Shown here: in pieces, positions 3,555-56,357 of the stretch
How the letters are laid out: each line of letters starts with the position of its first letter
How positions within the stretch are numbered: the stretch's first letter is position 1
From: Vairimorpha necatrix
Lineage: Eukaryota
Assembly: GCA_036630325.1 (NCBI GenBank)
Contig: CP142736.1
Location: 248,001-312,000 of the forward strand
Length of the DNA stretch: 64,000 bases
Reading direction: 5' to 3'
Position numbers and translations under genes: made by a program
The notes under the pieces: generated by a model
The model's input: only the letters and a program-made list of their open reading frames with translations
Told to the model about the DNA's origin: nothing
Database searches by the model: none

Positions 3555-5246
3555 ATGAAAATTTGCAAAATTTTCACAAGTATGTTAATTGTACAGGGAT
3601 ATCAAGATGTCTACAATAAACTATATACACTAATAACTGAAAAAATTAAAAATAGAGATTATTGGGAAATTTCTAATGAAAAAAAATATTTAAGGATAAA
3701 ATTGTCTTTTGATTATTTGAATTATCAATTAGATGCGAATATATTAGAAGAATGTAACATTCTCGAAATAATAGAAGAAGAAAAAAGAATATTAGTAAAT
3801 TCTATCGAGAGATCCATTCAAGATATTGTTGTAGAGTTCGAAGATAAATTACTACATGAATGTGAAATTTTGCGTCCAGACTTTATTGTGCTAATTTATA
3901 ATCCTGCATGTTGTCAGCATAATGTGTTTAAACAAATAATCGATTTTTTAATTCAAAAAAATTTAGCAAGAAGAAATTCAATCAATCGTAGCGATCTATT
4001 ATATGAATACATAATCGAAGATATTTCATTATGGAATGTTATGTTTGTAAATTTATATAAACAAGAATATAACAACGATTTTAGTCATCAAAAAATACCA
4101 CTTACTTTTAGTAAAAGGGGAAAACAGCATTACGTAAATTTTTGTATTGAAGTCAAAAATATTAAACATTTATTTGAAATTAATGCAGAAGAAATCGGTA
4201 AGGAAAGTCTATATACTTGGAAAGATACATGCCTTGAAAAGAATAAAGAAGTAGACAGAAAAATTGGCAATTATTTTCATATGTTATACAAGAATATTTA
4301 TGTTGACAATATTGACAATTATTCTATGCCATTTTTCAAAATTTGTACTCCTTATAAAATTGAATTATTCATTAAAAAATTTCGAATTGAGATAATAGAT
4401 GATGAAATTCATCTTGGGCACCGGAATGAGAATCATATTTTCATTCCAAATAGACAAACAACATTATTTGGGAAAAGATACGCGAACGAAAATAAATGGA
4501 TCACGGAATTTAAAAGAGTTTTTAAAAAAATTCATGCAATAGATTTTTCGGAGAACCGTTGTAAAGGCGTTGAAATGTTTTTTAGATTGATTAGATATCT
4601 TAATAAAGTAGATTTTTTTATAGAAAGAATTTTAAATGCTGAAGGTTCGCCTATGAACGTTCTATTAGCACATCTATTACATATTAAAGGATTAATAAAC
4701 AGAAGTGAATTAAAAAATATTATAAATATCGAAGGTCTAATCGAAGAAAAAAAGATACAACTTTGTAAAGAATTAGAAAAAAGTTTATCAACTGATAGAT
4801 GCAATTCAATTTCTTTTTTATTAAAAATATTTTTATTCATAGAAGGTGAAAAATATATAAATAAAAACAGGTCAAACCCCGAACCCAATTTTAAAATATT
4901 GAAGATGATTGGAGCTCTAATAAAGTCGAAAGGAAAGGCTCGTGGTATTTTGAAAAAGATAGAATCAGGGTTTTTTATAAATAAAAATAAGATTGATTTG
5001 GCCGTTATATATGATGATCTAGTAAAAAATCACTTCCAAGATTATCAAAATAGTCAAAGTAATTTATGGAAGGAGGTTTTTAAAATAGCATCATTGTTTA
5101 CAGGATTAGAATCTACTAGATGTGAAATTAATGACCATACATTCTATACTTTGAAAGGAAAAATTATCAGAGAAATGGGACTTGATAAATATGAGGTAGA
5201 AAAAAATAATAAAATAATACAAAGAACTTTATTTGAAAAAAACTAA
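3555..5246 (+). CDS. Hypothetical 563-aa protein, paralog of 11860-13557; possible N-terminal signal peptide
   Basis: Long ORF, CCC motif before ATG, full-length similarity to the second copy (LRPDxIVLIYNP, EMFFRLI, GSPxNV, ASLFTGLESTRC). Confidence 0.85.
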   Translation: MKICKIFTSMLIVQGYQDVYNKLYTLITEKIKNRDYWEISNEKKYLRIKLSFDYLNYQLDANILEECNILEIIEEEKRILVNSIERSIQDIVVEFEDKLLHECEILRPDFIVLIYNPACCQHNVFKQIIDFLIQKNLARRNSINRSDLLYEYIIEDISLWNVMFVNLYKQEYNNDFSHQKIPLTFSKRGKQHYVNFCIEVKNIKHLFEINAEEIGKESLYTWKDTCLEKNKEVDRKIGNYFHMLYKNIYVDNIDNYSMPFFKICTPYKIELFIKKFRIEIIDDEIHLGHRNENHIFIPNRQTTLFGKRYANENKWITEFKRVFKKIHAIDFSENRCKGVEMFFRLIRYLNKVDFFIERILNAEGSPMNVLLAHLLHIKGLINRSELKNIINIEGLIEEKKIQLCKELEKSLSTDRCNSISFLLKIFLFIEGEKYINKNRSNPEPNFKILKMIGALIKSKGKARGILKKIESGFFINKNKIDLAVIYDDLVKNHFQDYQNSQSNLWKEVFKIASLFTGLESTRCEINDHTFYTLKGKIIREMGLDKYEVEKNNKIIQRTLFEKN

Positions 5247-9600: not shown

Positions 9601-10388
9601 TTTCTAGCTACACGTTTTAAATAAAAAATTTTAACAAAATATTATTGATGTCTTGCTATACTATATCAATTATGTTTTCTCAAATCTTTAATTTTTTTAT
9701 GTCAAACAAATTTTTTATTAATATTCTTTAAAAAATATTGTGCAATAAAAAAAATATGGCGTATTTTATAAAAGAGGAAAATTTACTAAATACTTTTCAT
9801 CATTGTAATTATATGAAAAATACTAAATTTTCACTTAACAAAATTTTACTATATTATTAAACATTTTACATAAAACGATATAATAATAAAATCCCTTTTA
9901 AATGTTTTTTTTTTATGCAAGATAAGTTACAAAAATAGAAAAAAAATATATATATTGGATACAATGTTTTATTTTAGAACATAGAATAACATTTTGCCAA
10001 ATAAATGCGTCTTTGTACTTAAGAATGTTTGAAACATATGCGGACCTGATTTATTATAATTGCTCTATCAAAACTAAAACATTACAAAAAAAGATCTTGT
10101 ATTTTATATATATTATGCATAAATTTAATAATCTTAATATGTTAAAAATATCTATATTCAAAACCATTTTAACTAGCGGAACACACAATAATAAATTTTA
10201 TAAATACAAATTAACATGTGCAATGCTGATACAATTATAGATATTTGGTCATTATTAGAAAAAAAATTAATTTATTATAAACCACATCCAAAATGCTATG
10301 TTTGTTACGACTTTGCTTAAGCTAATTACATAAAGATTTTTGCTTAATGATTTTTTATCTTTTTTTCAGTAATTCATAAACAAAAAGT

Positions 10389-11180
10389 AGGTGCCCTTAG
10401 CCCAGCGGTAGAAGACAATGCTTCAATTGAGCAGTGGCTGGGTCGATTTCAGTGGCACCAAAATTGTTTCTACCTTTCTATGATGCAGTTGAACAACTCA
10501 GATGATAAAAATGTCCACGATATCATAAAGTTGATTCAATGAAACTTGTGTGTTTTTAGCAACAAAGGAATTAGCATCTAGTTAAGAAACGCACCTCTAA
10601 GCTAAAAAAGCAGTATCCCCCTTTGGTGACTTAATGATACATAATAGAATCTGCTGGTTACGGCCTAGAGGAGCCCATGGCGGTGCACTCTAGAGTAGTA
10701 TCCTAGAGCTAACTATGAGATTAAACGAAGTAGGGCAATATAAGGTCTCGTGGACCCTATCTTACATGATTCTGTAACACGGTGGCCGAAACCAGTGGGA
10801 GACTGGTGGTCAACGCAGTTTAATGAAAATGTCGGGCTGGTGATGTGGTCGTGTAAAGAGCTCTGTGTGCAATACAGATGATCGATGGGATTTTTGAGTC
10901 AGTACGATGATGTCTATCCTCGGGTTATAGACAATCATGCCCGTTAAGTATATCCGCTGTGAGGTCACTCTGGACACGATTTGAGGTATAAATGGAAAGT
11001 GTTCTTCTGGAGCCAAAGTCGAATGGATACGGCGGAGCTTGCTGCGCCGGCAAGTTGTATGGAGGAAGTTTTAGTGAGTAAGAATCTCACAGTACCAGTT
11101 GGATGAGGATCACACCCAAATCCCTCTGGTCCCTATGTAAGGTTTCTCCCAAACTCTTACTTGCAAGAAAAAAAAAAAAT
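10389..11180 (+). mobile_element. tRNA-headed SINE, copy 1
   Basis: tRNA-like head 10390-10460 (A box TAGCCCAGCGG, B box GGGTCGATTTC, GGTGCC/GGCACC acceptor stem), GC-richer body, A12 tail at 11168-11179, 13-bp TSD ATAAACAAAAAGT at 10376-10388 and 11181-11193. Confidence 0.85.
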
Positions 11181-11859
11181 ATAAACAAAAAGTTAAGAAA
11201 AAACATTTAATATGCAAAAACGGGGGCTAAAAGAAGTGCTGTATTTTTGACTTATTTATAGATATAATGCAAAATCACAAACCATGCTCTATGTAAATCA
11301 AGTGGGAAATATTGTAATTTTACAAGTGATGTTACGTGAATTTCGACAAAATACTACAATATCCTGTAAATAATACAAATTATTTACTAAGCACTAAGAA
11401 ATTATCTATGACATTATTTTGAAGATATTGCAAAAAAATTTCTTAATATCGACAGGACCATTATGAGATGGTCATGAACCAAAATTAAAACATAGAGTAG
11501 AAATTGTGTATTTTTAAAGATTTGTAAAAATAAAAAAAACGCACGAGTCTAGTATTAATGTACATCATTAAATAAAAATAAAATTTACATATGTAAATAG
11601 AAATATGAATAAATTTTATAAATATAATTTTGTTTTTCACTTTATGATTTTTTCTAACATTTAATTACTTATGAAAAGAAATTTAATCTTATTTTGACAT
11701 CAATCAAAAATCTAACAAAATATTCAAATATCAACCAATTTGTAAAAAAATCTTAATTTTTAAGTATAATTGTTTTTGTTTAAATATAAATAAATTTGAA
11801 GAATTTACGTTCCTTGATTTTTTTATTTTTTGTGTAAAAAACAAAATTTTTTATCCCAT

Positions 11860-13557
11860 ATGGATATTTTTGCAATTTTTACAAGTATATATTTTGTTGT
11901 AGGATTTTCAGAGACCTATGATAGTTTTAACACAGTTATATGTAATAAAATAAAAAACAAAGATTTTTGTTCAATTGATACTGAAAAAACATATTTGAGA
12001 GTAAAATTGGAGTTCGACAGCTCCAATAAAAGATTGAATGCGCTTATTCTAGCTAACTCTCGTATTCTTAAACTTACCGAAGTAGTAAAAATTATAGCAG
12101 TATATTGTGCTGATAAGTCTATAATATATATTGTCAGAATGTTTGAATATAAGTTAATACGTTTGTGTAAAAAATTGCGTCCAGACAATATCGTACTAAT
12201 TTACAACCCAAAACATTGTGATAACCCCGTATTTTGTCAAATAATTTCCTTTTTAATGAAAAAAAAATTAGAGAGAAAAGATGAAATCAATTGCCTCGAT
12301 CCGATATATGAATACATAATCGAAGAAATGTCATTGTGGAATTTTATGTTTGTAACTTTATATATACAAATATATAACAACGAAATTGATTACAAAATAG
12401 TACCGCTTACATATAGTAAAAATAAAAATTCGCATTATATAAATTTATGCATTGAAAGTAAAAATATTAAATATTTTTTTACAATTAACGCCCAAGATAT
12501 TGATATTGAAAATTTTTCTACTACTATAAAATGTAGAGATAAAAAAAATAGGAATAAAATAGACAATAAAATTAGCAAATATTTTCATAAATTATACAAG
12601 ACTGCTTATATCGAGGATATTGGTGGATATTCTCTGCCATTTTTCAAGATTTATACGGACGATAAAATTGAGTTTGTCAGTGGCACTTTTAGGATCAAGG
12701 TAGTAAATGATAAAATTCAATATGCACAAAAAAATAACAAATATATTATCAGTCCAATCAAACTTACAACCTACGATGGCTATAGAGACAATAATGAAAA
12801 TGAATGGATAATAAAATTTAAAGAAACTTTAGAAAGGATTCGTGCAATAGACGAATTTAAAGAAGGTCGTATTGGCACAGAAATGTTTTTTAGATTAATA
12901 ACCTTTCCTTATAAAGTGGATTTCTTCATAAGAAGGATTTTAGATGCGCAGGGTTCACCTTTAAATGTTATGTTGGGACATATTTTAATATCTGAAGGAT
13001 TAATTAACGAATCTGAGTTAATAAATATTACAACAAACGATCGCCTTAATGAAGCAAAAACAATCGAAATTTGTGAAGAATTGGAAAAAATTACATCGAA
13101 GAATTGGTGCAATCATACTTCTTTTGCAATAAAGATATTTTTATTTTTAGAAGCCGAAAAATATTTAAATGAAAACGACGCAGAAAAAAGAAATAAATTG
13201 AAAATTTTAAATAAAATTGGAAATATTATAGAGTCAAAAGAAAAAGAATATAGTATTTCAAAAAACATGACATCATTGTTATCAACGAATAAAAATAAGA
13301 TTGATCTGATAAAAATATATGAAGAACTAGTAAAAAATCATTTACAGGATTATTTAAATTATAAAAAAACTTTATGGGTGGAGGTCTTTAGAATAGCATC
13401 TTTGTTTACAGGTTTAGAATCAACTAGATGTGATATTAGAGGCTATAAATTTCAAGCTTATAAAGAAAATATTATTGAAACGTGGGGACTTGATAAATAC
13501 GAAATAGAAAAAAATAATGAAAAGATAAAAAAAGATCTAGATACTAATAAAATATAA
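11860..13557 (+). CDS. Hypothetical ~565-aa protein, paralog of 3555-5246; hydrophobic N-terminus
   Basis: Long ORF; ATG at 11860 preceded by CCC and aligning with the paralog's start. Confidence 0.85.
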   Translation: MDIFAIFTSIYFVVGFSETYDSFNTVICNKIKNKDFCSIDTEKTYLRVKLEFDSSNKRLNALILANSRILKLTEVVKIIAVYCADKSIIYIVRMFEYKLIRLCKKLRPDNIVLIYNPKHCDNPVFCQIISFLMKKKLERKDEINCLDPIYEYIIEEMSLWNFMFVTLYIQIYNNEIDYKIVPLTYSKNKNSHYINLCIESKNIKYFFTINAQDIDIENFSTTIKCRDKKNRNKIDNKISKYFHKLYKTAYIEDIGGYSLPFFKIYTDDKIEFVSGTFRIKVVNDKIQYAQKNNKYIISPIKLTTYDGYRDNNENEWIIKFKETLERIRAIDEFKEGRIGTEMFFRLITFPYKVDFFIRRILDAQGSPLNVMLGHILISEGLINESELINITTNDRLNEAKTIEICEELEKITSKNWCNHTSFAIKIFLFLEAEKYLNENDAEKRNKLKILNKIGNIIESKEKEYSISKNMTSLLSTNKNKIDLIKIYEELVKNHLQDYLNYKKTLWVEVFRIASLFTGLESTRCDIRGYKFQAYKENIIETWGLDKYEIEKNNEKIKKDLDTNKI

Positions 13558-32699: not shown

Positions 32700-35600
32700 T
32701 CATCTAATATTATGTCTTTGTTAAGAAATCATGTCTTCTTATCAATATTAAGTGGCCTCGTGATAAACTGCCTTATATTTAAAATATAAGGAAAATTTCT
32801 AAAAAAAAGATAGTCCTGCTTTGTAGAGCACATATTCTGATTATTTAACATTTCTTATTACAATGGCAAGGCTACGCTGATGTGTCCACTAGAGCTCTAT
32901 ATTGTTTATAAATCATAAGCCCACATCTTATAAATATGTGTATTATTTGCTTAAGGAAATACATTTAATTTTTTAACATATTTTTTCGCTTCTAAGCTCT
33001 CATTTGTTTAGCTCTTTATTGAAAACAATTATTTAGGTAAATTAACGGTGTATGTGATTGTATCAGGATATTTTTCATCTTTCTCTAATAGCTTAATATT
33101 CTCTGACTTTCATTCAAAATCCCCATATTATGATTTATAGTTGAGTATCATATAGATTAATCTACTCGTTTAATTTATTATCAACCTTGTCTGATCTAAC
33201 AATTCAGATAATTTAACTAACTGTATTGTAAATTCTGTTTAATTTTATCTAAAAATTCTTATAAAAAACTTCTGAAATTTCTAGATAATTATTTATTTAG
33301 ATTTAATTCTATAAGTTTGGCGCGTTTCTAGTATCTAAGCGTTTACATAACCTTCTAAAAATTAATCTCAAGGCCAACTGCACACGAGTTTTTTTTGTTC
33401 CGAGCATTAAAACATTAAGCACCTTATAGTCTTTAGCTAGCAATTTGAAGTCGATAAAAATATCTAGCGACTGCACTTTTTATAACTCCGAACTTTAAAA
33501 AATTTTTATTGGATTTGTTTATTAGCCTTTAATCAAAAAAAAACTATCAAGAAGAGTATATGCCATCTTTAAAAGATTTCCTACATAAACATGTATAAAC
33601 AATTCTTTTTCATATTTAATTTACTCGATAATCTTCTAGTCTGGTATTTATATAATCTAGTTATTCATTTGTATTATATTATACATGTTACAATGAATTG
33701 CGTTTTTTTTGTCTGTATCTTTCCGTCTTCGACCAGAAGTTATGTTTCTCATTCGATGTATTATTTGTAAGCGCTTTTAAGCACCTTGTCTTTCATAGTC
33801 GTATCTTTATATTTTCTCTTAATAGAAAATTAAAGCTGGAATGTTTTACTAGATATTTTGTAATAACTTATATAGATTTTATATGCGAGAAATATCTAGG
33901 CGGAACTTTAGTAGACTTAAATTAATTTTAGTATTAAGTGTGTAAGTATTTTGTAACTAACCCTTTACTTCTTTTCAATACATATCATTTTTTGTTCTTT
34001 GTAAAATAGATGTGGAAAGAAAATTCACATAAAGATCAATTATATTTGTACGTTATTTGTATCCAACTGGTATTGTCGGATTCTTACTCACTAAAACTTA
34101 TGCTTTTATACTACCAGTATAAAGATCAGCTGTCTCCAATAAACTTTGTCTCCAGGAGAAAAAAAATATATATGTGGATTTGAATGCTTCCAGGATGATT
34201 TCATGGCGAATATACTAAACGGGTATGCCTCCTTAACCGAAAAATGCATCATTTTTTTACGCAAAGGTTCCTACTGTAATTTTCCTCGCGCAAACGACTT
34301 TTACCCCTGACACATCATACCATGCATTAATAATATTGTATTGTCGAGTAATCTTCCTTTATAAGGCTTACCACATTATAAAATTTAGTATTGAGTCAAC
34401 AAAACCTTCAATTCTTTTATATCTATTTTTTAAATCGTTTCAAGGATCATACCACAGAGCTCACCTACCATAATTCTAAAGTACACTGTATTCGGGAGAT
34501 AAAAAAAAGTGAAAACTCTCTACAAAAGTAATGTTATTTTGGCCCCGAGACGTGTTTCTACACAAGTTGCGATATTTCCTGGTGATTAAATGCACTCAGA
34601 GGTCGTTAACTCTTTAATAATTATCGTAAAAATTTTTTCATCTGAGTTGTTATAACTGCATCATATAAATATATAACATTTGGTACATGATCTTTTGGAA
34701 CCCGCATTTAAAATCTAAAAAAGAGAAAAATGAAAAAAATATAAAAAAAGGACTTGGCAATGAATTTTGATTCATAAAAGAAGATGATTTATACGTCGGT
34801 TTTTTTGGTATTTAATAGGCCGATATACATTGTAAATCTACTCAAGTGCTTGTCCTGATTTATTCCATGCCTAGGCCGGAATTCTCTCTCGGAAAGAGAC
34901 CAAAATCCTTCAATTTGTTTGGTATTGTATCTCAGGATTGTTATAGCTTACAAAATTGTAAAGATGATTTACAGTTCTGTGCTCCGTCTCTGTGGCTTAT
35001 CTAATGCGGCATAATCTGCTCTCCATTGAACAGTATTTACAATAGAACTTAGTTAATTATTATCTTGCATTACCTCAAGAAGAATAGACGCATTTCTACT
35101 AGCCACAGGACAAGTAAGACACACGCGGGTTCTATATTATTATATGTTTTTAGAATAATCTTTAATTTATTTTCATATACAAAAAAACTCATCTGTTTTA
35201 CACAAAATTTTGTCATTTTTATATAGGGGGATCCTTCCAAATTATCAATGTTGGTTTATTTTTCCAATGCAAGCTCCAAACGTCCATGAACCTAACCATT
35301 TTTGTTAAGATATTCGTAGCTCTGTTTAATAATGAGTTCTGCTTTAAAACAGGACCAAGTGCATCTAAACATCTTCTATTAAGGAATAGTAATTTTTTTG
35401 CATAGTGTCAAGTTTTTTTTTTGTTTAAAGATAAACATGAACTGTCCAGTTGCTTATTAGCTAGAAAGCATTTAAATTTATTCTAAACTCTTCTTCTGTT
35501 AGAACTATAAAATTTATTCATTTTTAGACTATACTTAATAGATAGTCAGTAAAATTATTAATTTTTTTTTTCTTTGTATGTATCCAATAATTTCGACCAG

Positions 35601-36224: not shown

Positions 36225-37310
36225 TTATTCTTTTAATACCAAATGCCCAAGGATCATGAAAACGCATAAGAAAAAAACAAGCCAAAGTTTTTTACTTATA
36301 TATTTTTTAGGTATATATTGCGATACTAATAAAGCTGCAACACATACAATAGGAACAAAAACTGCATAACTTAAAACTCCAAATCTATAAGAAAATGCAT
36401 CCAGTTTAAAGCCAACGTCGGTAGAAGCATCTGTAGGAGCTATATCCTCATGCAATTTGGAGAAGACAGTATCAGAGGCGCTATTAAGAAGATTTTGGTC
36501 ATATGGTATTTCCATAATATTTAAATTAGAATCATTTTCTTTGACTAATTTTTTCGATGTATCACTATTGATTATAGATCTTTTATTTCTTGATTGTTTT
36601 TTGCCTCTAAATCCGTTTCGTATATCAATATTAATACTGGTTGGCTCTACAATTTGATCCTGTGTCTTAAAATATCCAACTATCTCACTACAGTAATGTT
36701 GTCGGGTTGGATTAAATACTCGTTCATGCTTTATATTCATATTCCACCTTCGATGTTCAGGTACACACTTGTTTAAAACGCCTTGTTTGATGAAAATATT
36801 CTCTTCACACGATACATCTCCTTCGCATGCTTGTATTACTAAACTTTTGGCACATCTTAGTTTATCAAAATGTTCTTGTTGGATACAATTCCTTTTATTG
36901 CACTCTTCGTTAAAAGTTTCCGCCGCATTTACGAACCTATCTTCTAAAATTTTTTTAGTATCTTCTTCTTTAAATCTTCTTACCAAGTCAGGCTTGCCAA
37001 ATGCTTCACCTTCCTCCTGGTTATAACAATTAATATTTGTATCAGTATTAAATAATCCATGCGTATACCAATTGCAAAAAGGATTTACCCATCCTTTATA
37101 TTTACTTTGGGCTAAATTATAAATAGTAACTAGTCTTCTTTCGTTACAATGGACACATTGGTTGTATTTTCTAAGTAGACATCTCAAAAAATTTTTGTGA
37201 ACATATATTGTCTGAGTATTATCTTTGCAATGCATGTTGGCGTACATTATTTCTGATGCCATGGAGTCAGCTAATTGTTCGTCAGACTTAGGATTTTCAG
37301 TATCACACAT
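36225..37310 (-). CDS. Cys-rich protein with RNKR site and two C-terminal hydrophobic helices, family copy A
   Basis: CCC-ATG at 37310 aligns with the paralog start; first ~245 aa highly similar to 42198-43283. Confidence 0.88.
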   Translation of the reverse strand: MCDTENPKSDEQLADSMASEIMYANMHCKDNTQTIYVHKNFLRCLLRKYNQCVHCNERRLVTIYNLAQSKYKGWVNPFCNWYTHGLFNTDTNINCYNQEEGEAFGKPDLVRRFKEEDTKKILEDRFVNAAETFNEECNKRNCIQQEHFDKLRCAKSLVIQACEGDVSCEENIFIKQGVLNKCVPEHRRWNMNIKHERVFNPTRQHYCSEIVGYFKTQDQIVEPTSINIDIRNGFRGKKQSRNKRSIINSDTSKKLVKENDSNLNIMEIPYDQNLLNSASDTVFSKLHEDIAPTDASTDVGFKLDAFSYRFGVLSYAVFVPIVCVAALLVSQYIPKKYISKKLWLVFFLCVFMILGHLVLKE

Positions 37311-37859
37311 GGGATAAAATTTTTTTATTGAATTTAAATACATGTCAAAATTCTAATTTTTTTTCATTTTTATATAGATAGCTCGGAGATAGTTTATAAC
37401 TCGACAATTAAAAAAACGGAATTTGTCTTTTATTTATTGATGTATGTCAAGACCACAAATGTCAAATCTCAACAGCAACAAAATATCAATATAATACATA
37501 TATAGAACAAGAAATATTTTTGCATTTTTTTAAACTAATGTTTTTTTTTGTAAAAAAAAATTAGAGAGTTGTTTCAAACTTATAATTCACATTTTTTCAT
37601 GCTTACTTTAAAAATTTATAACTTACGTCTTTGAACTTATTTTAATAATTTAAAATGTTGTTTTATCGACACATGTCAAAATTTCAAATTTTTTTCACTT
37701 TTGATTATTTTATGATTTTTAAACACCAGACATAAGACATATAAGTTTTTTGTACTTATCCTATTCGAATTATAAATTCGTACGTTTTTTCTTTATTTTA
37801 CCATATTATTGACTTTTTGATTCGACTTTCTTTATTTTACAAATTTTAATCTGCAAACA

Positions 37860-38749: not shown

Positions 38750-41700
38750 AGTTTTTGCACGAGTAATGGGAATAGCTTTCTCTTACTTATATGATAAATG
38801 CTGTCAATAATATAGTACTCTTTTTACTCACATTCTCTGTCCATTTTTTGCAACTTCCAAAATGTTTTTAAGTATTGCAGATTATGCAGCGGCTTTGATT
38901 TGGCTATTCGCTTAAACCATTTTTGAATGTAGGTGGTATCTGTAGAGACCACCTTTTGTTAAAATAAACGCAGAAACTTAGACTTGTGTTTATACATAGA
39001 ATCTGCATGGTTTGCAAAGAGATCATGCTTACACCTGTTTTTATTCCTACTGTTCTTAGTTATAAAGTCTAATAAAAGCATTTTTTACAACGATTATTTC
39101 CCAAATACTTTGTACATTATATGAATGTCGTGTTAATTGTACTTAAATATGTATAAAGTCCCCATCTTTTCTCTAAGGTTTATAGTAATTCGGACTTGTA
39201 AAAAGCAATTTTTTCTCATTGTATATCCTGCAAGCCCGTAGCCGCAACATATCTGTAGACATATGTACTCTAGAACTTCGTTATGCCTTCGTATATAATT
39301 ATATTGCAAAATTATTTCACCAAAGTCGGCATGAGGTCGTTATTACCTCTCATAAAAATATTTTCTTAGTGATTACACAGTTTATGGTTACTAAGTTTAT
39401 ATTTACTTTTGTAAACCATAACGAAGTCACCTATATCAGTTTATGTTATTTCCTATGTTCAATAAATTTTTTGGTAAAAAATCAGGTTTCAAATCCACTA
39501 AAAGGTAAGTCATTGGGTTTCTAGTTTTCATTTTAAGACTTCGCTTTCTAATTTGACTTAAATTCCAAAAAAGCCTTAATCTTAGAAAGGTAGATATTTT
39601 TATTATTTTCTATTTTAAACAGAAATTTCTTTTTTGGTTCCTTCTGTGACGTCTATAACTTAAGGAATTGCAAAACCATTTCTTGCCAAGAAATTAGACA
39701 TTAAAAAGACTCCTGTTTGGCTTTTATCTCGGTAAGTGTGTCCGTTGCCGCGAAGGTATATAACGTGTGAGGTGTTGCAACAAATATTTCCAATCTTTTA
39801 TACGGATGTTTAATGTTTGAAGACTTTTCTGAAATGATCTTTGCAAGCTAAGCAACGTACTGTATTCATTATGGCCTTTTATAAAATCTAGGGTTGAGCT
39901 AAGTTTGCTAATTTTTCTGTATTTTTTCAATCGCATTGTATATCATATTCTTGTTTGATCTAAGTTTTTCTCTTAGAATATTCCGTAATTTCTTTCATCT
40001 ATATCCAAGTGTGACAATAAAAGTTTGGACTTTCTTAACAACCAACATGGTGGTTCTCTTCCAACTTGATTTTGTAGCTGTCATAATAAAACATATTTTC
40101 ATTCTTAAAAAATAGTTTAATTTATCAACACGAAATAACCTATACATGCAAAACTTCGTTTTCGGCCTTTCCCATTATGTGTTTTTCATAGAGCTTCATA
40201 CAGAGAAGCTTATCGCTTGATAAACGAGAGATACGGCAAAGCTCTTAAAGACTTTTCTTTTTGGTACATGGCCGTTTGGAACCCGCTTTGGGAAAATGAA
40301 CCCGCTTTGGGAAAATAAAGTCGCATTGAAATTTTAAAGGACCCCCTTTAAAAAATGGCAAAATTGGTAAAAACAATGTTTGTTGAGGCAGATGTGGTTT
40401 TGAGTGATGAAATGTATTTATAATGGAATATAAAGAAAAGTTTATTTTGGAAACATTTGATGCTGAATCGGCGTGCGCCTTGCTCGTTTCTGTAACTAGT
40501 AGAATACTGCTTTTTCCTTGAGGTGATACAAGAAAATGTATAACCTGTTTCTATATGATCTCTAATCAATGGGTAGCATATGATGTCATATTAGCTAAGC
40601 AAAGGGATGGAGCACAGTACTAAGAATCACTCCATAAATGCCTAACCTCTAGCGATTCTGAGCCACATAATATTATATAATTTAGTTGGTTTCGGCTCAT
40701 TCCTATAAGAGATATTTGATCTTAACATAATCAAAGAAGAACACTATGAGTACCTTTTACAGTTTCACTAGGCTTTTCAAATTCCCAAAAATTAACGGAT
40801 AAATTGTCTTCTGTCATTATTTAAAATAAATCATCAAGTCCTTTTTTTATAACTTTTTTTTATTTTTCCCTTTTTTTGAATTTTTCAAAGCGGGTTTATT
40901 TTCCCAAAGCGGGTTCATTTTCCCAATGCGGGTTCCAAACGGTCATGCACCAAACTTTTTTCTGATTTTTTCCTAGGATCTTATTCTAGTGCAGAAAATT
41001 CTAGTTAAGTTAATAAAAAACATATATTTATCAACGATTTTGCTAGGGGTTCGACAAATGTAACATGATAAGTAAGTAGGCCAAAGCCTGCGCAAAATTT
41101 ACATATAAACTCATATTTTTTTTATTCACATAGCTTGCCCAGCTCCAATATCTTTCGATTGTTCACAAGATGTTTGCTTAACGATAACTGCGTTTGGTTT
41201 TTATACATTATATTTAAGTTCTCCAGTACTTAGGAATGTTATTGTTCGCATTTCTAGGTTAGTTTATGAATTTGACACTCAAATAATTAGTTGGTAAATA
41301 ACTTCTAGAGGTAAAGTTTTTTCTATATTATGAATTTAGGCCCTTTGTGATTTCTACTTCAGTTTTTTTTTTTACGAATCTTTCCTAAGCGGCATAAAGA
41401 CCTTTAAATATGTGTCGAGCTTGGAAAAAAGAAGTTAAAATTTTGCCTAATCTTCCCTGATAAGTTGCCTTTTAATAAGTCTAATAAACTTTAAAAGAAA
41501 CAACTTTTTTCCAGAATATTTTCTAGGAACAGTCTATATAATTATGTTTTCGCTTTCTTAATATGATATTATATTTTCATTTATAATGATTTAAGGTCTT
41601 TCAAATAGGACATTTGTACTAGTTGTGTTCAAGTGCAATATCTATTTTTATGTCTCCGTAGGGCGGCCTCGAATAAGCTCACATTTTTTGTTCTCTCTTC

Positions 41701-42197: not shown

Positions 42198-43283
42198 TTA
42201 TTTGATTAATGCTAAACAAACTAAAATGCCAATTAGGCACAAGAAAAAACCAATACAGTATTTTTTAGTTAAAAATTTTTCAGGTGGACATTTCGTTATT
42301 AAATAAGCAACAACACATATAAAGAGAACTAATACTGCATAATTGAATATTTCAAACGTATATTGATAATCATTTAGTGAAGAGGAAACGTTAGAAGAGA
42401 AGTCTGCATTCGAATTTTCCTTGCGTGAGTGAGAAACCACAGCATTATAGATTTTTTTAAAAGAATTTTGCTCGCTTGGTATTTCTATAATATTATTATT
42501 CGAAACATTTTCTTTGACTAATTCTGTTGATGAATCATGTTTTTCTAAAGATCTTTTATTTCTTGATTGTATTTTGCCTCTAAATCCGTTTCGTATATCA
42601 ATAGTAATACTAGGTGGTTCTACAATTTGATCCTGTGTCTTAAAATATCCAACTATCTCACTACAGTAATGTTGTCGATTTGGATTAAATACTCGGATAT
42701 GCTGAATATTCATGTTGCTCCTTCGATGTTCAGGTACACACTTGTTTAAAACGCCTTGTTTGGTGAAAATATTCTCTTCACACGACACATCTCCTTCGCA
42801 TGCTTGTATTACTAAACTTTTGGCACATCTTAGTTTATCAAAATGTTCTTGTTGAATACAAGTCCTTTTATTACACTCTTCGTTAAAAGTAATTGCCGCA
42901 TTTACGAACCTGTCTTCTACAAATTTATTTGTATCTTCTTCTTTAAATCTTCTTGCCAAGTCAGGCTTGCCAAATGCTTCCCCCTCCTCCTGGTTATAAC
43001 AATTAATATTTGTATCAGTATCAAATAATCCATGTGTATACCAATTGCAAACAGGATTTACCCATCCTTTAAATTTATTACAGGCTAAATTATATATAGT
43101 AACTAGTCTTCTTTCATTACAATTGACACATTGGTTGTATTTTCTAAGTAGACATCTCAGGTAATTTTTATGAACATATATTGTCTGAGTATTATCTTTG
43201 CAATGCATGTTTGCGTACATTATTTCAGATGCCATTGAGGCAGCTAATTGTTCGTCAGACTTAGGATTTTCAGTATCACACAT
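42198..43283 (-). CDS. Cys-rich membrane-anchored family, copy B
   Basis: Intact 361-aa ORF, CCC-ATG, RNKR, two C-terminal hydrophobic segments. Confidence 0.88.
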   Translation of the reverse strand: MCDTENPKSDEQLAASMASEIMYANMHCKDNTQTIYVHKNYLRCLLRKYNQCVNCNERRLVTIYNLACNKFKGWVNPVCNWYTHGLFDTDTNINCYNQEEGEAFGKPDLARRFKEEDTNKFVEDRFVNAAITFNEECNKRTCIQQEHFDKLRCAKSLVIQACEGDVSCEENIFTKQGVLNKCVPEHRRSNMNIQHIRVFNPNRQHYCSEIVGYFKTQDQIVEPPSITIDIRNGFRGKIQSRNKRSLEKHDSSTELVKENVSNNNIIEIPSEQNSFKKIYNAVVSHSRKENSNADFSSNVSSSLNDYQYTFEIFNYAVLVLFICVVAYLITKCPPEKFLTKKYCIGFFLCLIGILVCLALIK

Positions 43284-43858: not shown

Positions 43859-44898
43859 GGACCTTCGGGCCGAAATTCACCTTTTTTTGATGTCTTCAAA
43901 TTTTCATTTTTTCACCCCAAAAAATGAAATTCCCAAAGTTGAGGAAAAGAGAGATTGAAGAGAAAATAATACAACAAATAAAAATCTTACAACTTAGCAA
44001 TTGTAAAATATGCAATGAAGAGCTTACATCATACACAAAAAATAAGTATGAATATATGAAATGTACAAATAAAATATGTCCACTATATAAAAAACATATT
44101 AATGTTTGGAAAGGTACAATATTTAGTCATGTAAAAATTTCTAAAGTGAAATTTGTCGAGGTTATTGACCTCTGGTTATCAAAATGTAGTGTGGATACTA
44201 TTTCATACGTAACCAAAATTGATAAAAAAGTTATATGGAGAATATTGAAAAAAACTAGTGAAGTACTAGTTAAAAAATTCTACCAAAACATTGAATATAT
44301 TGGAATCCTGGTGAAACAGTTGAAATGGATGAGTCAAAGATTGGAAAGAATAAATATAATCGTGGACATCCAGTAGGAGGAGTTTGGCTATTTGGAGTAG
44401 TTGAAAGAGATGGTAAAAAAAGAGTCATATTATTTCAAGTTAGTGATCGTACTAAAAGTACGTTAAAATTTCACATTAAAAATAGTGTAAAAGAAGGTAG
44501 CAAATTATATTCTGACTGTTGGAAGGGATATACGGGCATTCAAAATGAAGGTTATAGTCACCACACTGTAAACCACTCTAAATATTTTAAAGATCCCGAG
44601 ACAGGAATACATACTAATACTATCGAAGGAACATGGTCTGGTTTAAAACAGCATATACCATACAGATGTAGAACAAGGAAATTAATTAATAGGTATTTAG
44701 TGAGGTACATGTTAATAAAAAACTATAATACTCATCCAGTAATAAGTTGTTTTAACGTAATTTAATATGAAAAATTAAATATTTAAAACTTTTATTTTTT
44801 TTTTATTTTCTTCCTCAACTTTTGGAATTTCATTTTTTGGGGTGAAAAAATGAAAATTTGAAGACATCAAAAAAAGGTGAATTTCGGTCCGATCAACC
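43859..44898 (+). mobile_element. Merlin DNA transposon with frameshifted transposase (43924-44765)
   Basis: ~85-bp TIRs; zinc ribbon, DESKIGKNKYNRG, SDCWKGY, VNHS, HTNTIEGTW; one frameshift near 44305. TSD unclear, so ends are +/-8 bp. Confidence 0.92.
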
Positions 44899-45548: not shown

Positions 45549-46528
45549 GGTTAAAGGGCAGTCTGGTGGCCAAAAATCCCTTAAAAGGAATTTTTAAAAA
45601 AATCACCCCAAAAAATGAAAAGTCAAGAGGAAAAAAATAAAAACTTAAAAATCATTTTAATAATTTTATCAAACAAATTCCCTTCAAAATTTCTTCTAAG
45701 CATAAATCCTAACAAAGAACTCTTTATTAATTTTTTTGTTCTATGCCTTATGGAAGTTTCACTTTTAACAGCGCTCCAATTACCTTCGATAGTATTAGAA
45801 TGGCATGAATTATTTTTATTAACCAATTCTTTTGAATGATTAACCGTCTTATGTTGTTGAAAAATTGAACACAACCTAGAATATGAAGAGAAGCAATCAC
45901 TATGTATGATAGATTCTGAGTTAACATATTTTTTTTAAAAGTTCTTCTAGTGTAGTTGCTCTTCTATTATCAACAGGAACAAACACAATTTTCCTTTGAG
46001 GTGTTCTTTCTACCATTCCGAAAATCCAAACTCCTTCTACCCATGGCCTCTATGGTATTTTAATTTACCAAACTTACTTTCATCTATTTCCACAACAATC
46101 CCAGGTCCTCCTATTATACCTGTTTCGACGTAAACAGAATTTTCGATGGAATTTACTGTTAAAGAAATGATTTTTCTTACACTTTTAATGCTAATTCCAA
46201 GAAATTCCGCAATAGCTTTATACTTTACATTAACAGACCATGATTTAATAATTAATAACATAGTATTAATTCCAAGCTTGTTATTGTAGAATGGAGTGTT
46301 TTTTTAATAAAGACCATTTACTTCTACATTTAGACCAACCACATCGAAAAATAAAATTTTCATTATATTTTTTACTTATAGAACCACATTTTATACATGA
46401 TTTGCTTGTTTTTTCAATATATTTTAAAAAAATTTCAAAAAGTTTTTCCTCTTGACTTTTCATTTTTGGGGTGATTTTTTTAAAAATTCCTTTTAAGGGA
46501 TTTTTGGCCACCAGACTGCCATAGCTCC
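45549..46528 (-). mobile_element. Merlin DNA transposon with broken transposase
   Basis: Perfect 9-bp TSD GATGTATAA; ~85-bp TIRs; VEIDESKFGKLKYHRG, VNHS and HSNTIEGNW in three ORF fragments. Confidence 0.95.
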
Positions 46529-47279: not shown

Positions 47280-47960
47280 ATTTAAATAGAATATGCTTAT
47301 TGTAATTTATATTTATAGTTTAACAAGGATAGGTTCCGCGCTAGCGTCTCCTGCTTGTAGGTGGCTTCTCGTCTCCATAGTCCTTTCCGCATCGGCTTCA
47401 TCTCCTCTACTTCGGTAGTCCAGAGAAATGCTTTCTTTTGTCTTCTTTAGCGTGATCATCTGGATCTACGCTTCTCCCTTTTGGGGATTTCAAGTCTTGT
47501 GGTTTAAGATTTGTGAAACTTAGTCTTTATAACATCCCAAGTGATTACGTAGGGAATTATTTCTTTTTTAAAACCATATATTAGGCCCGGTTTGTTCTCA
47601 AGGACATCATACTTTCTTAACTTATCATTTTCTACTTGCTGTAGATTCTCTTGTGATGTGACATCTATTTCGATAATTTTGATCGATTTGTTCTTTAAGT
47701 CTTCTACGACAATGTACGGTTTATTATATTTGATCTTATTGTCTGTTTTTACCGTCGTGTCTATTCTTATTTCACATCTTTGTTGGCAACTATCTGTTGT
47801 ACTGAGTGATTTCTTAATCTCTTCTTAGGCTGCACTTTATATTGTTCACACAATGTAGGTTGATGCATTTAACAATTTTATTATGCCTTCTCATATAGTC
47901 GTGTCCTAGAGTTTTTTGCACCTTGTCGCTAGATGATCCACGGTCTCTGCTAATTTATTG
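47280..47960 (-). mobile_element. Younger 5'-truncated RLE-type LINE fragment
   Basis: LGHDYMRRHNKIVKCI and NKPYIVVED..IIEIDVT..ENDKLRKY..IIPYVITWD restriction-like endonuclease motifs. Confidence 0.8.
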
Positions 47961-50165
47961 CAATGAAGAAAATTTTTAATCGATTATTAAATATATTTCG
48001 GTCTTGTAGGGCACATAACTTATTTCTGTCGATGTATTCGTGTTACCTACTTATAGCCATAGTGATGAATTTTTAATGTTGACTATTTCATTTTATTTGC
48101 CCTAAACAACTTTTTAATTTTTTCGTATTTTAAATTTTTTTATATTCTAAGCTTATTGTTTCATATGTATTAGTGTGTTAACCCGTATTTTTCATTTTTA
48201 ATGGCAATGCACTTTTGCATCGATATTTTTTGTCGATATATGACTTGAAGATTATAACTGTAACAGATCTTACGAAGATGTACTTAAAAACTTTGTCACA
48301 CCTTCGCATATAATAATGTTCCAACATTATTCCGCACGAGATGCCATGCAACCAGTCTTTTTATTTTTCAATATATCGTGAATTTCTAGTCCTTTTGCAG
48401 AATATGATCTTTTTTTGCAAAGCACGGCGCAGCCTCTTCTTTCGTTTATAATTACAATGTAAGCCACAACGACAAGTCACAGCATTGAAGTATAGTCCCA
48501 TCTAGTTCATTATAGTTTAGTTAAGTAAAACTACGTTTCTAATATCACATTCTAGTTTCATTCATTATGCTTTAAGTATTTTTTTGTAAGTTCATTTTCC
48601 TTTTATATTAAAATTTCTTAAAAGCCTTAATTTCGGTAGGTGTATTAAAAGAAAAAAATCTGTTTAAGTAAGATCTTGATACTCAATGAAGATTATCCCG
48701 AGTTGTTTAAAACATAAATGTATAAAATAGGATCTTTCCTTCTTAGATATTACATTGATAAGCAATGATCTAATCAGTCTCGAAAAATACAGCTGCTTTT
48801 GACAAAAATGCTATGATTGAAGTGAATTTTTTTGTAAAAAAATTATATTTTCGCATTCGATATTTTTCTCGCGGGTATTTATACTATATAAAATTATCTT
48901 ATAATAAAATTTTTATTTTTTGTCAAGAATAATATTTTCTGTTTTACTTTTGAATGTATAATCCTGTTTTAATCTTCCTTTTTAATCTTTTATTGTCATA
49001 TTCACGCAATATCCTTCTGTGATCATAAAAGTTTTGTGATATCTCTACACATATTAGTTTTTAAGGCAAACATCTCAAATTTGCCTCAAGACAACTTCGA
49101 GAATTAAATTTATGTTTCTGATATAGTTTTTATACTATCTAGCATTTTAAATCGTCAACGAATAACAAAAAAAACTCTTGATTACTATACTCTTTGTCTC
49201 GTCTTGTCCACCAAGTTGTTCATTTAGCTTCTTATCTATGAGTTCTATGCACAGCACAACATGAAAGAGATAAGCGTATTTACAGGAATTTCTTTTAATT
49301 AGAAATTTTTAATTTTTTGCTCATATCTTGCCTCAAGTGGCAATCTTCTAGCTAGGTCACAAAGAGAGTCATTCATCTTAAAATTTATAATATTTTGATG
49401 CTTTAATGTCTGTATGTTTTACAGTGCCTTGGCCTTGTCTTCGACTTCCATGCTGTTTATACCTAAGTAATGTTGTTGTTTGAAATATTATTTCAAAGCA
49501 TTGCTCATAGTATCTTGAACTTTCATATTTGTCATGAATTTCTCATATAATAATAATTTACAATTAAAATTTTAATCTTATGTGTATTAAATATAATAGA
49601 AACTTATATAAATTTAACATGTTATCGTTCGGTGGTCCTTCGTGAGTTTGATAGGGGGTTGTTATTGAGTGTGCAAGCACATTAGTTGCCTATATAAATC
49701 CTTTTTCATTCAATCTTAAAGTGAATACACGGCGTCTACTTCTTTATGGGTAATTTCAAGCTTTTTAATGATAAAGTAATACGTTTTGCGCCGTATTGCT
49801 GCTTTTAGCTGTCCCTCTTTATATCTATATGTTTTCCATCTATGAAGCAATATTCGCCGATGTTGAATTGAACGTCTTTTAAGGACCCGAAAATTTTTTT
49901 GTCTGTCAATATTTTCGATCGGAATTCTTAAATTTGCAAAAAGGCTAATTATTGCTGCGATTATTTCTCGTTTTTTTTGTTGGATTCTATAAAGGCGAAC
50001 TCAGAACGCACAAATATATGGTTTTCTTTTTAAAAGTGTTTTATCCTTGCTTAATATTGTAACTTTTCTTTTATACATTTTTCCAATAGTTTTACATATA
50101 TTTCCCAACAGCTTTGGCCTCATCAAGGATTATAATTTTTTTAGATTGCTTCTTTTGTTATTTTA

Positions 50166-53307: not shown

Positions 53308-53679
53308 TTTTATATTTATCTTGATTTTTTTGTTCTCATTGTATTGAATAATAAGCTCATTCAGCTTATAAGTTCTCTTCGCCCTTCTAGCGCTCATTCA
53401 AGGTGCTATTTTTTATTTTTTATACATTAATGTCTATAATAAATAAATCTTTCTAATTTGAAATAATAAAATAATAATGCAAAAAGATAAATTTAATATT
53501 AAGAAACGTACAACGCAAATATTTCTAAAAATTATCAAATTTATGATTTAAGCTTTTAATTAGCCTAACGTAAATAAAAATTTTATATCGATACCATAAT
53601 CTATATATTAAAATTTTTAAAAAGTAAATATAATTAAATGCTGATATCTTTCATATAATACAGTAGTACAATGAATTAT

Positions 53680-54744
53680 TTATTTCTTATGTGCAGAAAA
53701 ACCAAAGATCACAAATAAGCATAAGGAAAACAAGCCGAACCCTTTTTGCTGTAAATTTTTTTAGGCAAAAATTTAATGATAAAATAAGCCAAAACACATA
53801 TACTAGAAACTAATACTATATAGTTACACATATATGCATTAGGAAATATATTCAATACAGAGGAAACATTAGTAGAAATATCTGTAGAAGGTATCAAAGC
53901 CACTGAAGTAGAGTCGTTTGTAAACTATTTTGATCCTTTTTTAACTCCATAATGTTAAAATTAGGTTCGATTTCTTGATAAAATCTTCTGATTTTTAAAA
54001 ATTGTTTAAAGATGTTTTATTTCTTGTCTGTCTTTTGCCTCTAAACTCGTGTCTTATATCAATGTCAGCACTGGGTGGTTCGAGAAGTCGTACTTGTGTT
54101 TTAAAATATCCAACTACCTCATTATGGTAACGTTGATCATTTTCATTAAACACTCTTTCGTGATTAATGTTTATATTCCTCCTTCGACGTTCAGGTACAC
54201 ATTTGTTTAAAACTCCTTGTTTGATGAAAATATTCTCTTCATACGACACGTCTCCTTCGCATGCTTGTATGACTAAATTTTTGGCACATCTTAGTTTATC
54301 AAAATGTTCTTGTTGAATACAAGTCCCTTTATTGCACTCTTCGTTAAAAGTTTCCGCCGCATTTACGAGCCTGTCTTCTACGAATTTATTAGTATCTTCT
54401 TCTTTTAATCTTCTTACCAAATCATGTCTACCAAGTACTTCACCCTCCTCTTGGTTGTAACAATTAATATTTGTATCTGTATCATATAATATATGAGTAT
54501 ACCAATCACAAACAGGATTTGACCAACCTTTAAATTGATTGCGAGCCAAATTATAAAGGTTAACCAATCTTCCATCATCACAATTGACACATTGGTTGTA
54601 TTTTCCAGTAGACGCCTCAGATAATTTTTTTGTGAACATATATTAATTGAGTGTTGTCTTCACAATGCCTATTAGCATACATTATTTCAAGATGCAAATA
54701 TTTTAGCTAATTCTTTGTCAGATATATAATTTCGTTGCGCACAT
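53680..54744 (-). pseudogene. Cys-rich membrane-anchored family, copy C (frameshifted)
   Basis: ORF fragments 53995-54639 and 53709-53903 match copies A/B; CCC-ATG at 54744; RNKR changed to RNKT. Confidence 0.85.
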
Positions 54745-55014
54745 GGGATGAAAAAATTTTATACATATAAATACACGTCAAAAAAAAATTTCATTTTTTA
54801 ATACCTAACACAAAATATAGTTTTAATTTTGATAATTAATAGCTAAAAATAATTTTTGTTTTGTTTATAATACCATTCAAAACAAACTATAGTTTATATC
54901 AACAAAAACATTAAAATTACATATCGAACACATGTACAAGTTACATGGGTTTGAAATTAATTTTTTTATTATGATAAAAAAAAGTCTGATATTAAAAATG
55001 CATAGACGAGATGT

Positions 55015-55506: not shown

Positions 55507-56255
55507 GGATGTTACAGAATCGCCTTTTTAGCACATAAATTAGCGTCAAAGGCGGAGCATTACATTGACATAACTAAATTTAAATACGAGGCATCAAAAG
55601 GCTTCTACTTTGTTCGATGCAGTATAAATCTCATGAATACTATAAACTTGACAAAAAAATGTTTAAAAATTCAATACACATTGTAAGCGTTCAATAATAG
55701 GGAGTTAAAGCTTGAAAGATATACTAAAGTAATATCGAAATAATATTACTCTTGTAGTGATTTATCGATACAAAAGAATTCGCCCACGCAAATCTAATTC
55801 GGAGGCCATAGCTAATTTACTCTTAAATGATTTTTGCGCTAATCAGAAGAATATGCAAGGAAGATCAATAGAAGGCCTTTGGTCTCCAACATGATTCTTT
55901 GACGTTTTGGACGAAATTGGTCTAAAACTAGTGGTCAGCACAGTACAATTTTAAGTTTGGCTGGTGATGTGACGACGTAGATAATTGTAGGAACATTCGA
56001 AATAGTATGTGGATCTATTTAGGTTAATAATCCCGTTCACGTCTTATATATCTGCTGCGAGGTCACTCTGGACTCTATTTTATTGCAATTTAAAACTTCT
56101 AGTGTCAAAGTCAAATGAATGTGTCGAAACATTATGCGCTGGAAACTTACATGGATAGAGTATGGCGTCTAAAAAACTCACAAAACAGGTTGGTTTAGTA
56201 CCGCGCATTCATCCTGCCCCTATATACTACCTCCCTAACATTTATCCGAAAAAGG
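55507..56255 (+). mobile_element. Diverged second copy of the SINE
   Basis: Colinear matches to 10389-11180: GGCA.CAAAA..TTCTAC..GATGCAGT, ACATGATTCT, GGCTGGTGATGTG, TATC.GCTG.GAGGTCACTCTGGAC, CAAAGTC.AATG; ends approximate. Confidence 0.7.
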
Positions 56256-56357
56256 GCAAAATGACTTCATGAGAGATTTTTAAATAAGAGATTGTTTATA
56301 ATAAATCAAACAATTGAATGTGGATTGTCTCAAGACATGATGGTTTTTTTTATATGT

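What the first reader, a model, noticed from the sequence alone, without database searches (positions are those of the whole stretch)
10376..11193. Long tRNA-derived SINE in a microsporidian genome
All SINE hallmarks are visible: a cloverleaf-like head with Pol III A/B boxes, a ~700-bp GC-richer noncoding body, an A12 tail and a perfect 13-bp TSD. It is longer than typical SINEs, and a diverged colinear copy 45 kb away shows it is a family. SINEs are little characterised in microsporidia to my knowledge. The body could be structured RNA or horizontally acquired from an insect host (inference). Its 3' end does not resemble the LINE 3' end at 47290-47460.
Basis: partly seen in the sequence, partly recalled or inferred. 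Interest (0 to 1): 0.75.

Follow-up and report, generated by a model that had tools for sequence, protein, structure and literature searches.

The report
Microsporidian SINE with its tail-donor LINE
This is an ageing copy of a still-spreading, tRNA-headed jumping element (a SINE) in an insect-infecting microsporidian; its 3' end was taken from a rare LINE in the same genome and carries a folded RNA module that also turns up in unrelated retroelements.

Summary
Confirmed. 10389-11180 is a 792-bp tRNA-headed, A-tailed insertion between 13-bp duplications. It is an ~8%-decayed copy of a family with at least 121 3' ends in the 15-Mb genome, including a very young subfamily (99.4% mutual identity). 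Its closest relatives are Vairimorpha and Smittium elements, not insect ones. The SINE and LINE ends fold as the same U-rich four-way junction with compensatory changes. The fold also occurs in Ty3/gypsy elements and an unrelated LINE from metagenomes (9 of 19 motif hits close, shuffles 67 of 1900) and weakly matches Rfam's R2 3' UTR. The 540-nt body shows no ORF, Rfam match or folding signal; host origin is unsupported. Most likely: Pol III transcript copied by the tail-donor LINE's enzyme (inferred). An ordinary element class, barely described in microsporidia. The scan already noted this family, and once the module, on other pieces of this genome; the notes I saw did not name the donor LINE.

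The parts
10376..10388 (+). 5' target-site duplication (13 bp)
   Evidence: identical to 11181-11193
10389..10460 (+). tRNA-like head with Pol III A box (10398-10408) and decayed B box (10440-10450); 7-bp acceptor-like stem in young copies
   Evidence: young copies are called tRNA-Met(CAT) by ARAGORN but do not resemble the host's tRNA-Met genes
10461..11001 (+). non-coding body of unknown origin, about 540 nt; this copy has gained T5 runs at 10553 and 10891 (likely Pol III terminators; inference)
11002..11049 (+). relic of the last 16 codons of the tail-donor LINE's ORF
   Evidence: (young copy 13/16 identical to the C-terminus of the V. ceranae element P0002)
11060..11153 (+). U-rich four-way-junction RNA module (P1-UUUUA-P2-P3-P4-UUU-P1'), shared with the LINE 3' UTR; one P1 pair is broken in this copy
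   Evidence: 66.7 bits with model R1, which was built with a young sister copy
11168..11179 (+). A12 tail
11181..11193 (+). 3' target-site duplication
33990..34729 (-). old decayed copy of the same family (65% to a young copy), module still detectable at 34012-34105
55545..56261 (+). old decayed copy of the same family (66%)

Best explanation
A non-autonomous retroposon of the tRNA-SINE class, built of a tRNA-like Pol III promoter head, a body of unknown origin and a 3' part captured from an endonuclease(APE)/RT LINE of a Vairimorpha/Smittium lineage. Shown: anatomy, copy number, TSDs, 5' truncations, age range, tail homology. Inferred: Pol III transcribes intact copies from the A/B boxes through the A tract to a flanking T run; the 3' four-way junction lets the RNA be bound (and perhaps protected) so that the ORF protein of the tail-donor LINE nicks DNA at loosely chosen sites, primes reverse transcription in the A tract and inserts a copy between 11-18-bp duplications. 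The window copy is an older, probably dead insertion. Confidence that it is a SINE about 0.95; that the tail came from this LINE lineage about 0.9; that this lineage is the present mobiliser about 0.7.
For: At least 121 3' ends against 0 control matches. All 23 3'-end sites fetched to look for a LINE upstream were SINE copies, 4 of them clearly 5'-truncated. TSDs 43 of 61 against 6 of 205. Copies lie 0.4-32% from the majority sequence; subfamily B is 99.4% identical within and one B copy sits inside the head of an older copy (L026). Tail homology to the LINE in L085: 79% over 95 nt, E 1.6e-16; the LINE is also A-tailed and one short copy has a near-exact 13-bp duplication (L117). Model R1 hit 4 of 53 own-genome loci: three copies of this LINE and one old SINE, none in the 1242-aa LINE or the R4-like LINEs. 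The L085 ORF is open for 1092 codons, which neutral decay leaves in 2% of simulations at 2% divergence and none at 3%, so this LINE was active recently. A young copy has 1 T-run of four or more against 5 A-runs at equal base frequency, as expected for a Pol III transcript (weak). D-stem pair 14:26 switches between A-T (27 copies) and C-G (11 copies) among 61 (15 subfamily-B rows fall on an alignment gap there).
Against: No intact partner was found: 3 recent 3' ends and one old one; the best copy lacks about 220 N-terminal residues relative to full-length relative P0004. The last ~65 nt of SINE and LINE agree in fold but hardly in sequence, so the exact donor may be an ancestor or sister family. 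A related 1242-aa LINE with many intact ORFs is far more abundant. Subfamily B breaks one anticodon-stem pair. No transcript evidence: the one RNA run laid holds only short pieces from a related species and only as contigs. The LINE survey was not exhaustive (150 of 835 RT candidates scored; protein searches).
Confidence: 0.75

Rival explanations
1. Same SINE, but now mobilised by the abundant 1242-aa APE LINE (or an R4-like LINE) through relaxed recognition; the LINE-derived tail is a fossil.
For: That family has many intact ORFs and is of the same broad lineage (36% RT identity); no intact tail-donor copy was found.
Against: Its copies end in T-rich tails and lack the module; the R4-like families end differently too; the SINE keeps the module intact in both young subfamilies; the tail-donor LINE inserted recently.
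Confidence: 0.13
2. A functional host ncRNA: the tRNA-like head is processed off (as in tRNA-ncRNA dicistrons or mascRNA) and the body works as a structured RNA, with retroposition as a side effect.
For: Acceptor and T stems are intact in young copies and one D-stem pair covaries; weak mascRNA/menRNA hit, E 0.0014, below cut-off.
Against: No folding signal or Rfam match in the body; old copies decay fairly evenly along it (5-11% per 50 nt); subfamilies differ at only a handful of body positions, so covariation cannot be tested; the 3' part is LINE-derived.
Confidence: 0.06
3. The element was acquired horizontally from a lepidopteran host.
For: G+C far above the genome background; host-derived transposons are reported in N. 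bombycis (PMC3614468, passages); the head matches no host-genome tRNA closely among 40 of 63 tRNA loci compared.
Against: The named relatives of the tail donor among the best 120 hits are microsporidian or Smittium, apart from one bacterial-labelled MAG protein, and none is an insect; copies reach 32-35% divergence, so the family is long resident; a related microsporidian run holds pieces of it (X19).
Confidence: 0.06

Closest known systems
tRNA-derived SINEs with a LINE-derived 3' tail (SINE2/tRNA class; e.g. PxSE5 and PxLINE1.1 sharing a 43-bp end at 84%, PMC8010984 passages; head/body/tail scheme in PMC5786205 passages)
   Same: Small-RNA head with Pol III boxes, body of unclear origin, tail homologous to a LINE 3' end, TSDs.
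Long fungal SINEs: MgSINE (472 bp), mgsr1 (800 bp), Foxy, Egr1 (700 bp), EGH24 (900 bp) (PMC5063351, passages)
   Same: Length range and copy numbers (40-160).
   Different: No homology tested; the passages seen name no partner LINE for them.
Rfam RF00524 R2_retro_el (Drosophila R2 3' UTR; structure bound by R2 protein, PMC3414825 passages)
   Same: Same order of outer stem, UUUUAG linker, two hairpins, short terminal hairpin and UUU; 21.5 bits, E 0.045; a metagenomic chromovirus scores 23.7 bits, E 0.52.
   Different: Below the 38-bit cut-off; only model positions 79-206; R2 is a site-specific rDNA element with a restriction-like endonuclease (recalled), whereas this SINE is dispersed with TSDs and its donor is APE-type.
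ENE triple-helix elements of transposons (Evade ENE, PMC12501189 passages)
   Same: Two U tracts next to a G-C-closed stem near the RNA 3' end; in LTR elements it sits between the ORF and the 3' LTR, as in Evade.
   Different: The U tracts are short (4 and 3) and flank a multi-branch junction, not a simple internal loop; triplex formation is untested.

Membership tests
tRNA-derived SINE | 5' head derived from tRNA with A and B boxes | tested here: met
   donor tRNA not assignable (best alignments Ala/Leu, weak)
tRNA-derived SINE | short and non-coding | tested here: met
   about 790 bp; frames wholly inside a young copy are at most 86 aa stop to stop; only a 16-codon LINE relic
tRNA-derived SINE | many dispersed copies with variable TSDs, A-tail and 5' truncations | tested here: met
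tRNA-derived SINE | 3' end related to a LINE of the same genome | tested here: met
tRNA-derived SINE | transcribed by Pol III | not testable with these tools
   indirect only: T-run scarcity; no raw RNA reads
tRNA-derived SINE | mobilised in trans by the partner LINE | not testable with these tools
   inferred from shared tail and recent LINE activity
an already catalogued SINE family (SINEBase, Repbase, Dfam) | sequence match to a deposited consensus | not testable with these tools
   these libraries are not available; paper searches searches found no description
R2 RNA element (RF00524) | score at or above the gathering cut-off of 38 bits | tested here: not met
   21.5 bits; no match genome-wide among 49 of 652 candidates scored
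R2 RNA element (RF00524) | insertion at a fixed rDNA site | tested here: not met
   unrelated flanks and TSDs
ENE triple-helix element | U-rich internal loop flanked by G-C pairs in a stem-loop | tested here: inconclusive
   UUUU and UUU flank P1, but two hairpins interrupt the 5' strand
ENE triple-helix element | forms a triplex with poly(A) and blocks deadenylation | not testable with these tools
   needs melting and decay assays

The most novel reading that the evidence does not exclude
The U-rich four-way junction is a general, so far uncatalogued retroelement RNA module, shared by a microsporidian SINE, its APE LINE, an unrelated LINE, Drosophila R2 and Ty3/gypsy (and probably copia) elements. 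Because these use unrelated enzymes and priming modes, it would be less an RT handle than an ENE-like clamp that binds the A tail and stabilises the RNA; the SINE would have kept the LINE tail for this clamp as much as for enzyme recognition. The 'recognition structure' of Drosophila R2 would then be one member of this class.
Probability: 0.3. Interest if true: 0.72.

Novelty: new member of a known kind. Interest (0 to 1): 0.48.

Why it matters
SINEs appear in the microsporidian papers I searched only as a pipeline tally (0.18% of N. bombycis, PMC3614468 Table 2), as zero, or not at all. A defined SINE with its tail-donor LINE shows that these reduced parasites support a full Pol III/LINE parasitism, gives over 100 young insertion markers, and adds a fungal-lineage case of tail capture. 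If the shared junction proves to be a stability element across LTR and non-LTR elements, it changes how a classic '3' recognition structure' is read and is easy to test in vitro.

Tried and rejected
(1) R2-type partner, suggested by the Rfam hit: no RF00524 match in the genome; the donor is APE-type. (2) The 1242-aa APE LINE and three R4-like families as tail donors: no 3' similarity. (3) Body as degraded LINE ORF: SINE 1-615 against the donor ORF scored 66, shuffles averaged 76; the body had one real hit among 31 LINE/LTR loci. (4) That hit (L046) as the 5' UTR of the 1242-aa LINE: rejected, that LINE starts further on and the stretch is an old SINE copy. (5) A second, diverged SINE family for covariation: the 63-64% copies share both flanks, so they are one decayed insertion multiplied as a passenger. 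(6) Body as known ncRNA: no Rfam match. (7) Motif searches: bacterial genomes 2 hits, viral contigs 1 hit, none closing the junction; no SINE body in any of 19 metagenome hits; literal motif search in papers gave 3 listings with unrelated titles, not opened. The shuffle control was not matched to the real criterion and was redone. (8) Expression: 17 of the 20 holder rows have under half the words and only X19 among them was laid; depth in contigs is no measure of expression. (9) Tycowski 2016 (PMC4864102) is not held. Supplements were searched only for PMC7313128 (no 'SINE'); repeat libraries in supplements of the other papers were not seen and could list this family.

Full report
Setting. The window is G000:C11:248001-312000 of a 15.0-Mb, 12-contig genome. 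It carries an RNA polymerase II large subunit, and a LINE protein of this genome is labelled Vairimorpha necatrix by NCBI, so the host is a Vairimorpha-type microsporidian.

Observation. This copy's B box is decayed and neither ARAGORN nor Rfam recognises its head. Two old copies lie in the window, at 55545-56261 and 33990-34729 (65-66% identity, far above shuffles).

The family. A genome search scored 40 of 334 candidates; 41 of the 43 matches listed are near full length. A 26-nt 3' pattern finds 121 sites with up to two mismatches and 0 in the control. Of 61 full-length copies examined, 43 have a TSD (mostly 13-17 bp) against 6 of 205 swapped-flank controls. Flanks are mostly unrelated, with no clear target motif (read by eye), though a few copies share flanks and are duplicates rather than separate insertions. 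Divergence from the majority sequence runs from 0.4 to 32%; the window copy is at 8.3%. Two young subfamilies, A (97% within) and B (99.4% within), differ mainly in the head. ARAGORN calls both heads tRNA-Met(CAT), but they do not resemble the host's tRNA-Met genes; among 40 of 63 tRNA loci compared the best alignments are weak ones to tRNA-Ala and tRNA-Leu. Acceptor and T stems are invariant in the majority, a D-stem pair switches between A-T and C-G, and subfamily B breaks one anticodon-stem pair: mixed evidence that the head's shape matters at RNA level. Two public runs hold the SINE together with near-identical RPB1 contigs, and in one of them SINE depth is roughly a hundred times RPB1 depth (the tool warns that this is no copy number). 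An RNA run whose RPB1 is about 82-86% alike holds short SINE pieces, a weak sign that a related species has the family.

The tail donor. The LINE remnant at 47300-48100 belongs to a decayed family with a restriction-like endonuclease (R4/Dong-like by motif, recalled) and shares nothing with the SINE end. The same holds for two further families of that type and for an abundant 1242-aa APE LINE with T-rich tails. A low-ranking RT hit led to G000:C6 (L085), a 5'-truncated, A-tailed LINE with a 1092-codon open frame. Its last codons and 3' UTR match SINE positions 618-712 at 79% (E 1.6e-16). The SINE's relic frame is 13/16 identical to the C-terminus of a V. ceranae relative, which is 79% identical to L085 overall. 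In an RT tree of 27 rows (23 of 120 hits chosen, favouring named ones) L085 groups with V. ceranae and V. bombi (100/99), next to Smittium elements (90/87); long branches leave the outer rows unsure. The family is rare here: 3 recent 3' ends and one old one, none intact; L085 lacks about 220 N-terminal residues. Its unbroken frame implies under about 2% decay, so it moved recently, like subfamily B.

The 3' module. Beyond position 712 SINE and LINE diverge in sequence but fold alike: an outer stem P1, a UUUUA linker, hairpin P2, a variable arm P3, a short hairpin P4 and UUU. A young copy hits Rfam's R2 3' UTR model at 21.5 bits, E 0.045, below cut-off. A motif scan of metagenomes gave 19 hits. 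Nine close the junction by a fixed rule, against 67 of 1900 shuffles and 0 of 3 bacterial or viral hits; the nine are six independent sequences (L167; L168/176; L170/180; L171/179; L181; L182). L167, L171, L179 and L182 lie behind Ty3/gypsy pol genes and L181 behind a non-LTR RT with a poly(A) tail; L181's RT gave no BLAST match to L085's RT region. L168/176 look like copia by recalled motifs (no Pfam hit in the piece scanned), L170/180 are unassigned. Ten hits do not close; among them L174, L175 and L178 are gypsy-type, the rest look like chance. On seven aligned examples 98.8% of cells pair and 3 of 12 pairs show changes on both sides; P2 and part of P1 were fixed by my pattern, so only P4 and the 3' strand of P1 are independent evidence, and the examples were chosen for closing. 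A model built from them finds the module in the window copy and the old copy at 34012-34105 and, among 53 own-genome loci, only in the donor LINE and one old SINE.

The body. About 540 nt have no ORF, no Rfam match, no folding signal and no likeness to the donor ORF. A lead towards a LINE 5' UTR proved to be a passenger SINE copy. The donor's own 5' UTR is missing from all copies, so the bipartite-LINE origin proposed for SINE bodies (PMC5786205, passages) stays untested.

Mechanism. Shown: anatomy, dispersal, TSDs, truncations, tail homology, recent activity of both elements. Inferred from established SINE biology: Pol III transcription, target-primed reverse transcription by the LINE protein, recognition through the shared 3' structure. 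A young copy has a single T4 run, the one inside the module, while the window copy has gained two T5 runs and is probably silent. The main weakness is that no intact partner is in this assembly. The module's presence in LTR elements argues that enzyme recognition is not its only role; an ENE-like clamp on the A tail fits its U tracts and position (compare Evade, PMC12501189, passages) but is untested.

Literature. Searches: (listings and abstract starts). Read as keyword passages only: PMC10759460, PMC12449221, PMC4202319, PMC7313128 ('SINE' 0 occurrences in each main text; also 0 in the 9 supplements of the last), PMC11585130 (SINEs 0 in Microsporidia sp. MB), PMC13702014 (SINE only as a pipeline category), PMC3614468 (SINE 0.18% in N. 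bombycis), PMC5063351, PMC8010984, PMC5786205, PMC3414825, PMC12501189. None of the passages describes this family or the junction across element classes; subscription journals and repeat databases were not searchable. Earlier notes of this scan report the same family many times and the module once; I read them after forming my own reading and tested both points here.

Verdict. A real, active SINE family of a known kind, newly paired with its tail donor, in a group where SINEs are nearly undescribed; the cross-class 3' module is the part most worth following. Interest 0.48.

Noticed in passing
G000:C6:702000-726500 (L046, L047, L085) and 20+ other loci: An abundant two-ORF APE LINE (1242-aa ORF2) with T-rich tails forms tandem arrays; its copies begin right at an ATG, and a ~440-nt non-coding unit that shares its 3' end is repeated between them, possibly a non-autonomous derivative.
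   Followed up: partly
G000:C10:758419-762018 (L065:920-4519): One intact 1199-aa R4/Dong-like LINE with restriction-like endonuclease; at least three families of this type are present, including the decayed one at window 47300-48100.
   Followed up: partly
L026 (G000:C9:791338-792947); L128 (G000:C6:346800-348300): A subfamily-B SINE inserted into the B box of an older copy with a 12-bp TSD; another copy carries three tandem heads.
   Followed up: no
L252-L258 (e.g. G000:C11:628931, C5:190254, C3:861617, C12:698128): One old, 63-64% diverged SINE insertion has been multiplied with both flanks (97-99% identical among four copies), next to 1242-aa LINE arrays: transduction or segmental duplication.
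   Followed up: partly
window 43865-44892, 45557-46520, 57225-58237, 40260-40954: Four pairs of 70-85-bp inverted repeats about 0.7-1 kb apart, probably DNA transposons; 45557-46520 encloses a decayed Merlin/ISXO2-like frame (recalled motif).
   Followed up: no
window 36225-37343, 42198-43283, 53671-54868; 3555-5246 and 11860-13557: Two local gene families: three paralogues of a cysteine-rich protein with a C-terminal hydrophobic segment, and two ~565-aa paralogues with a likely signal peptide.
   Followed up: no
window 10831-11461 in run X1: Summed contig depth over the SINE's 3' half (about 77,000) far exceeds its 5' half (about 9,700) and RPB1 (30-80); unexplained, may reflect A-rich contigs or an RNA library recorded as DNA.
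   Followed up: no
L174, L175, L178 (metagenome contigs): Chromodomain gypsy elements keep P1, the UUUUA linker and P2 upstream of the polypurine tract but seem to lack P4: a possible three-way variant of the module.
   Followed up: no
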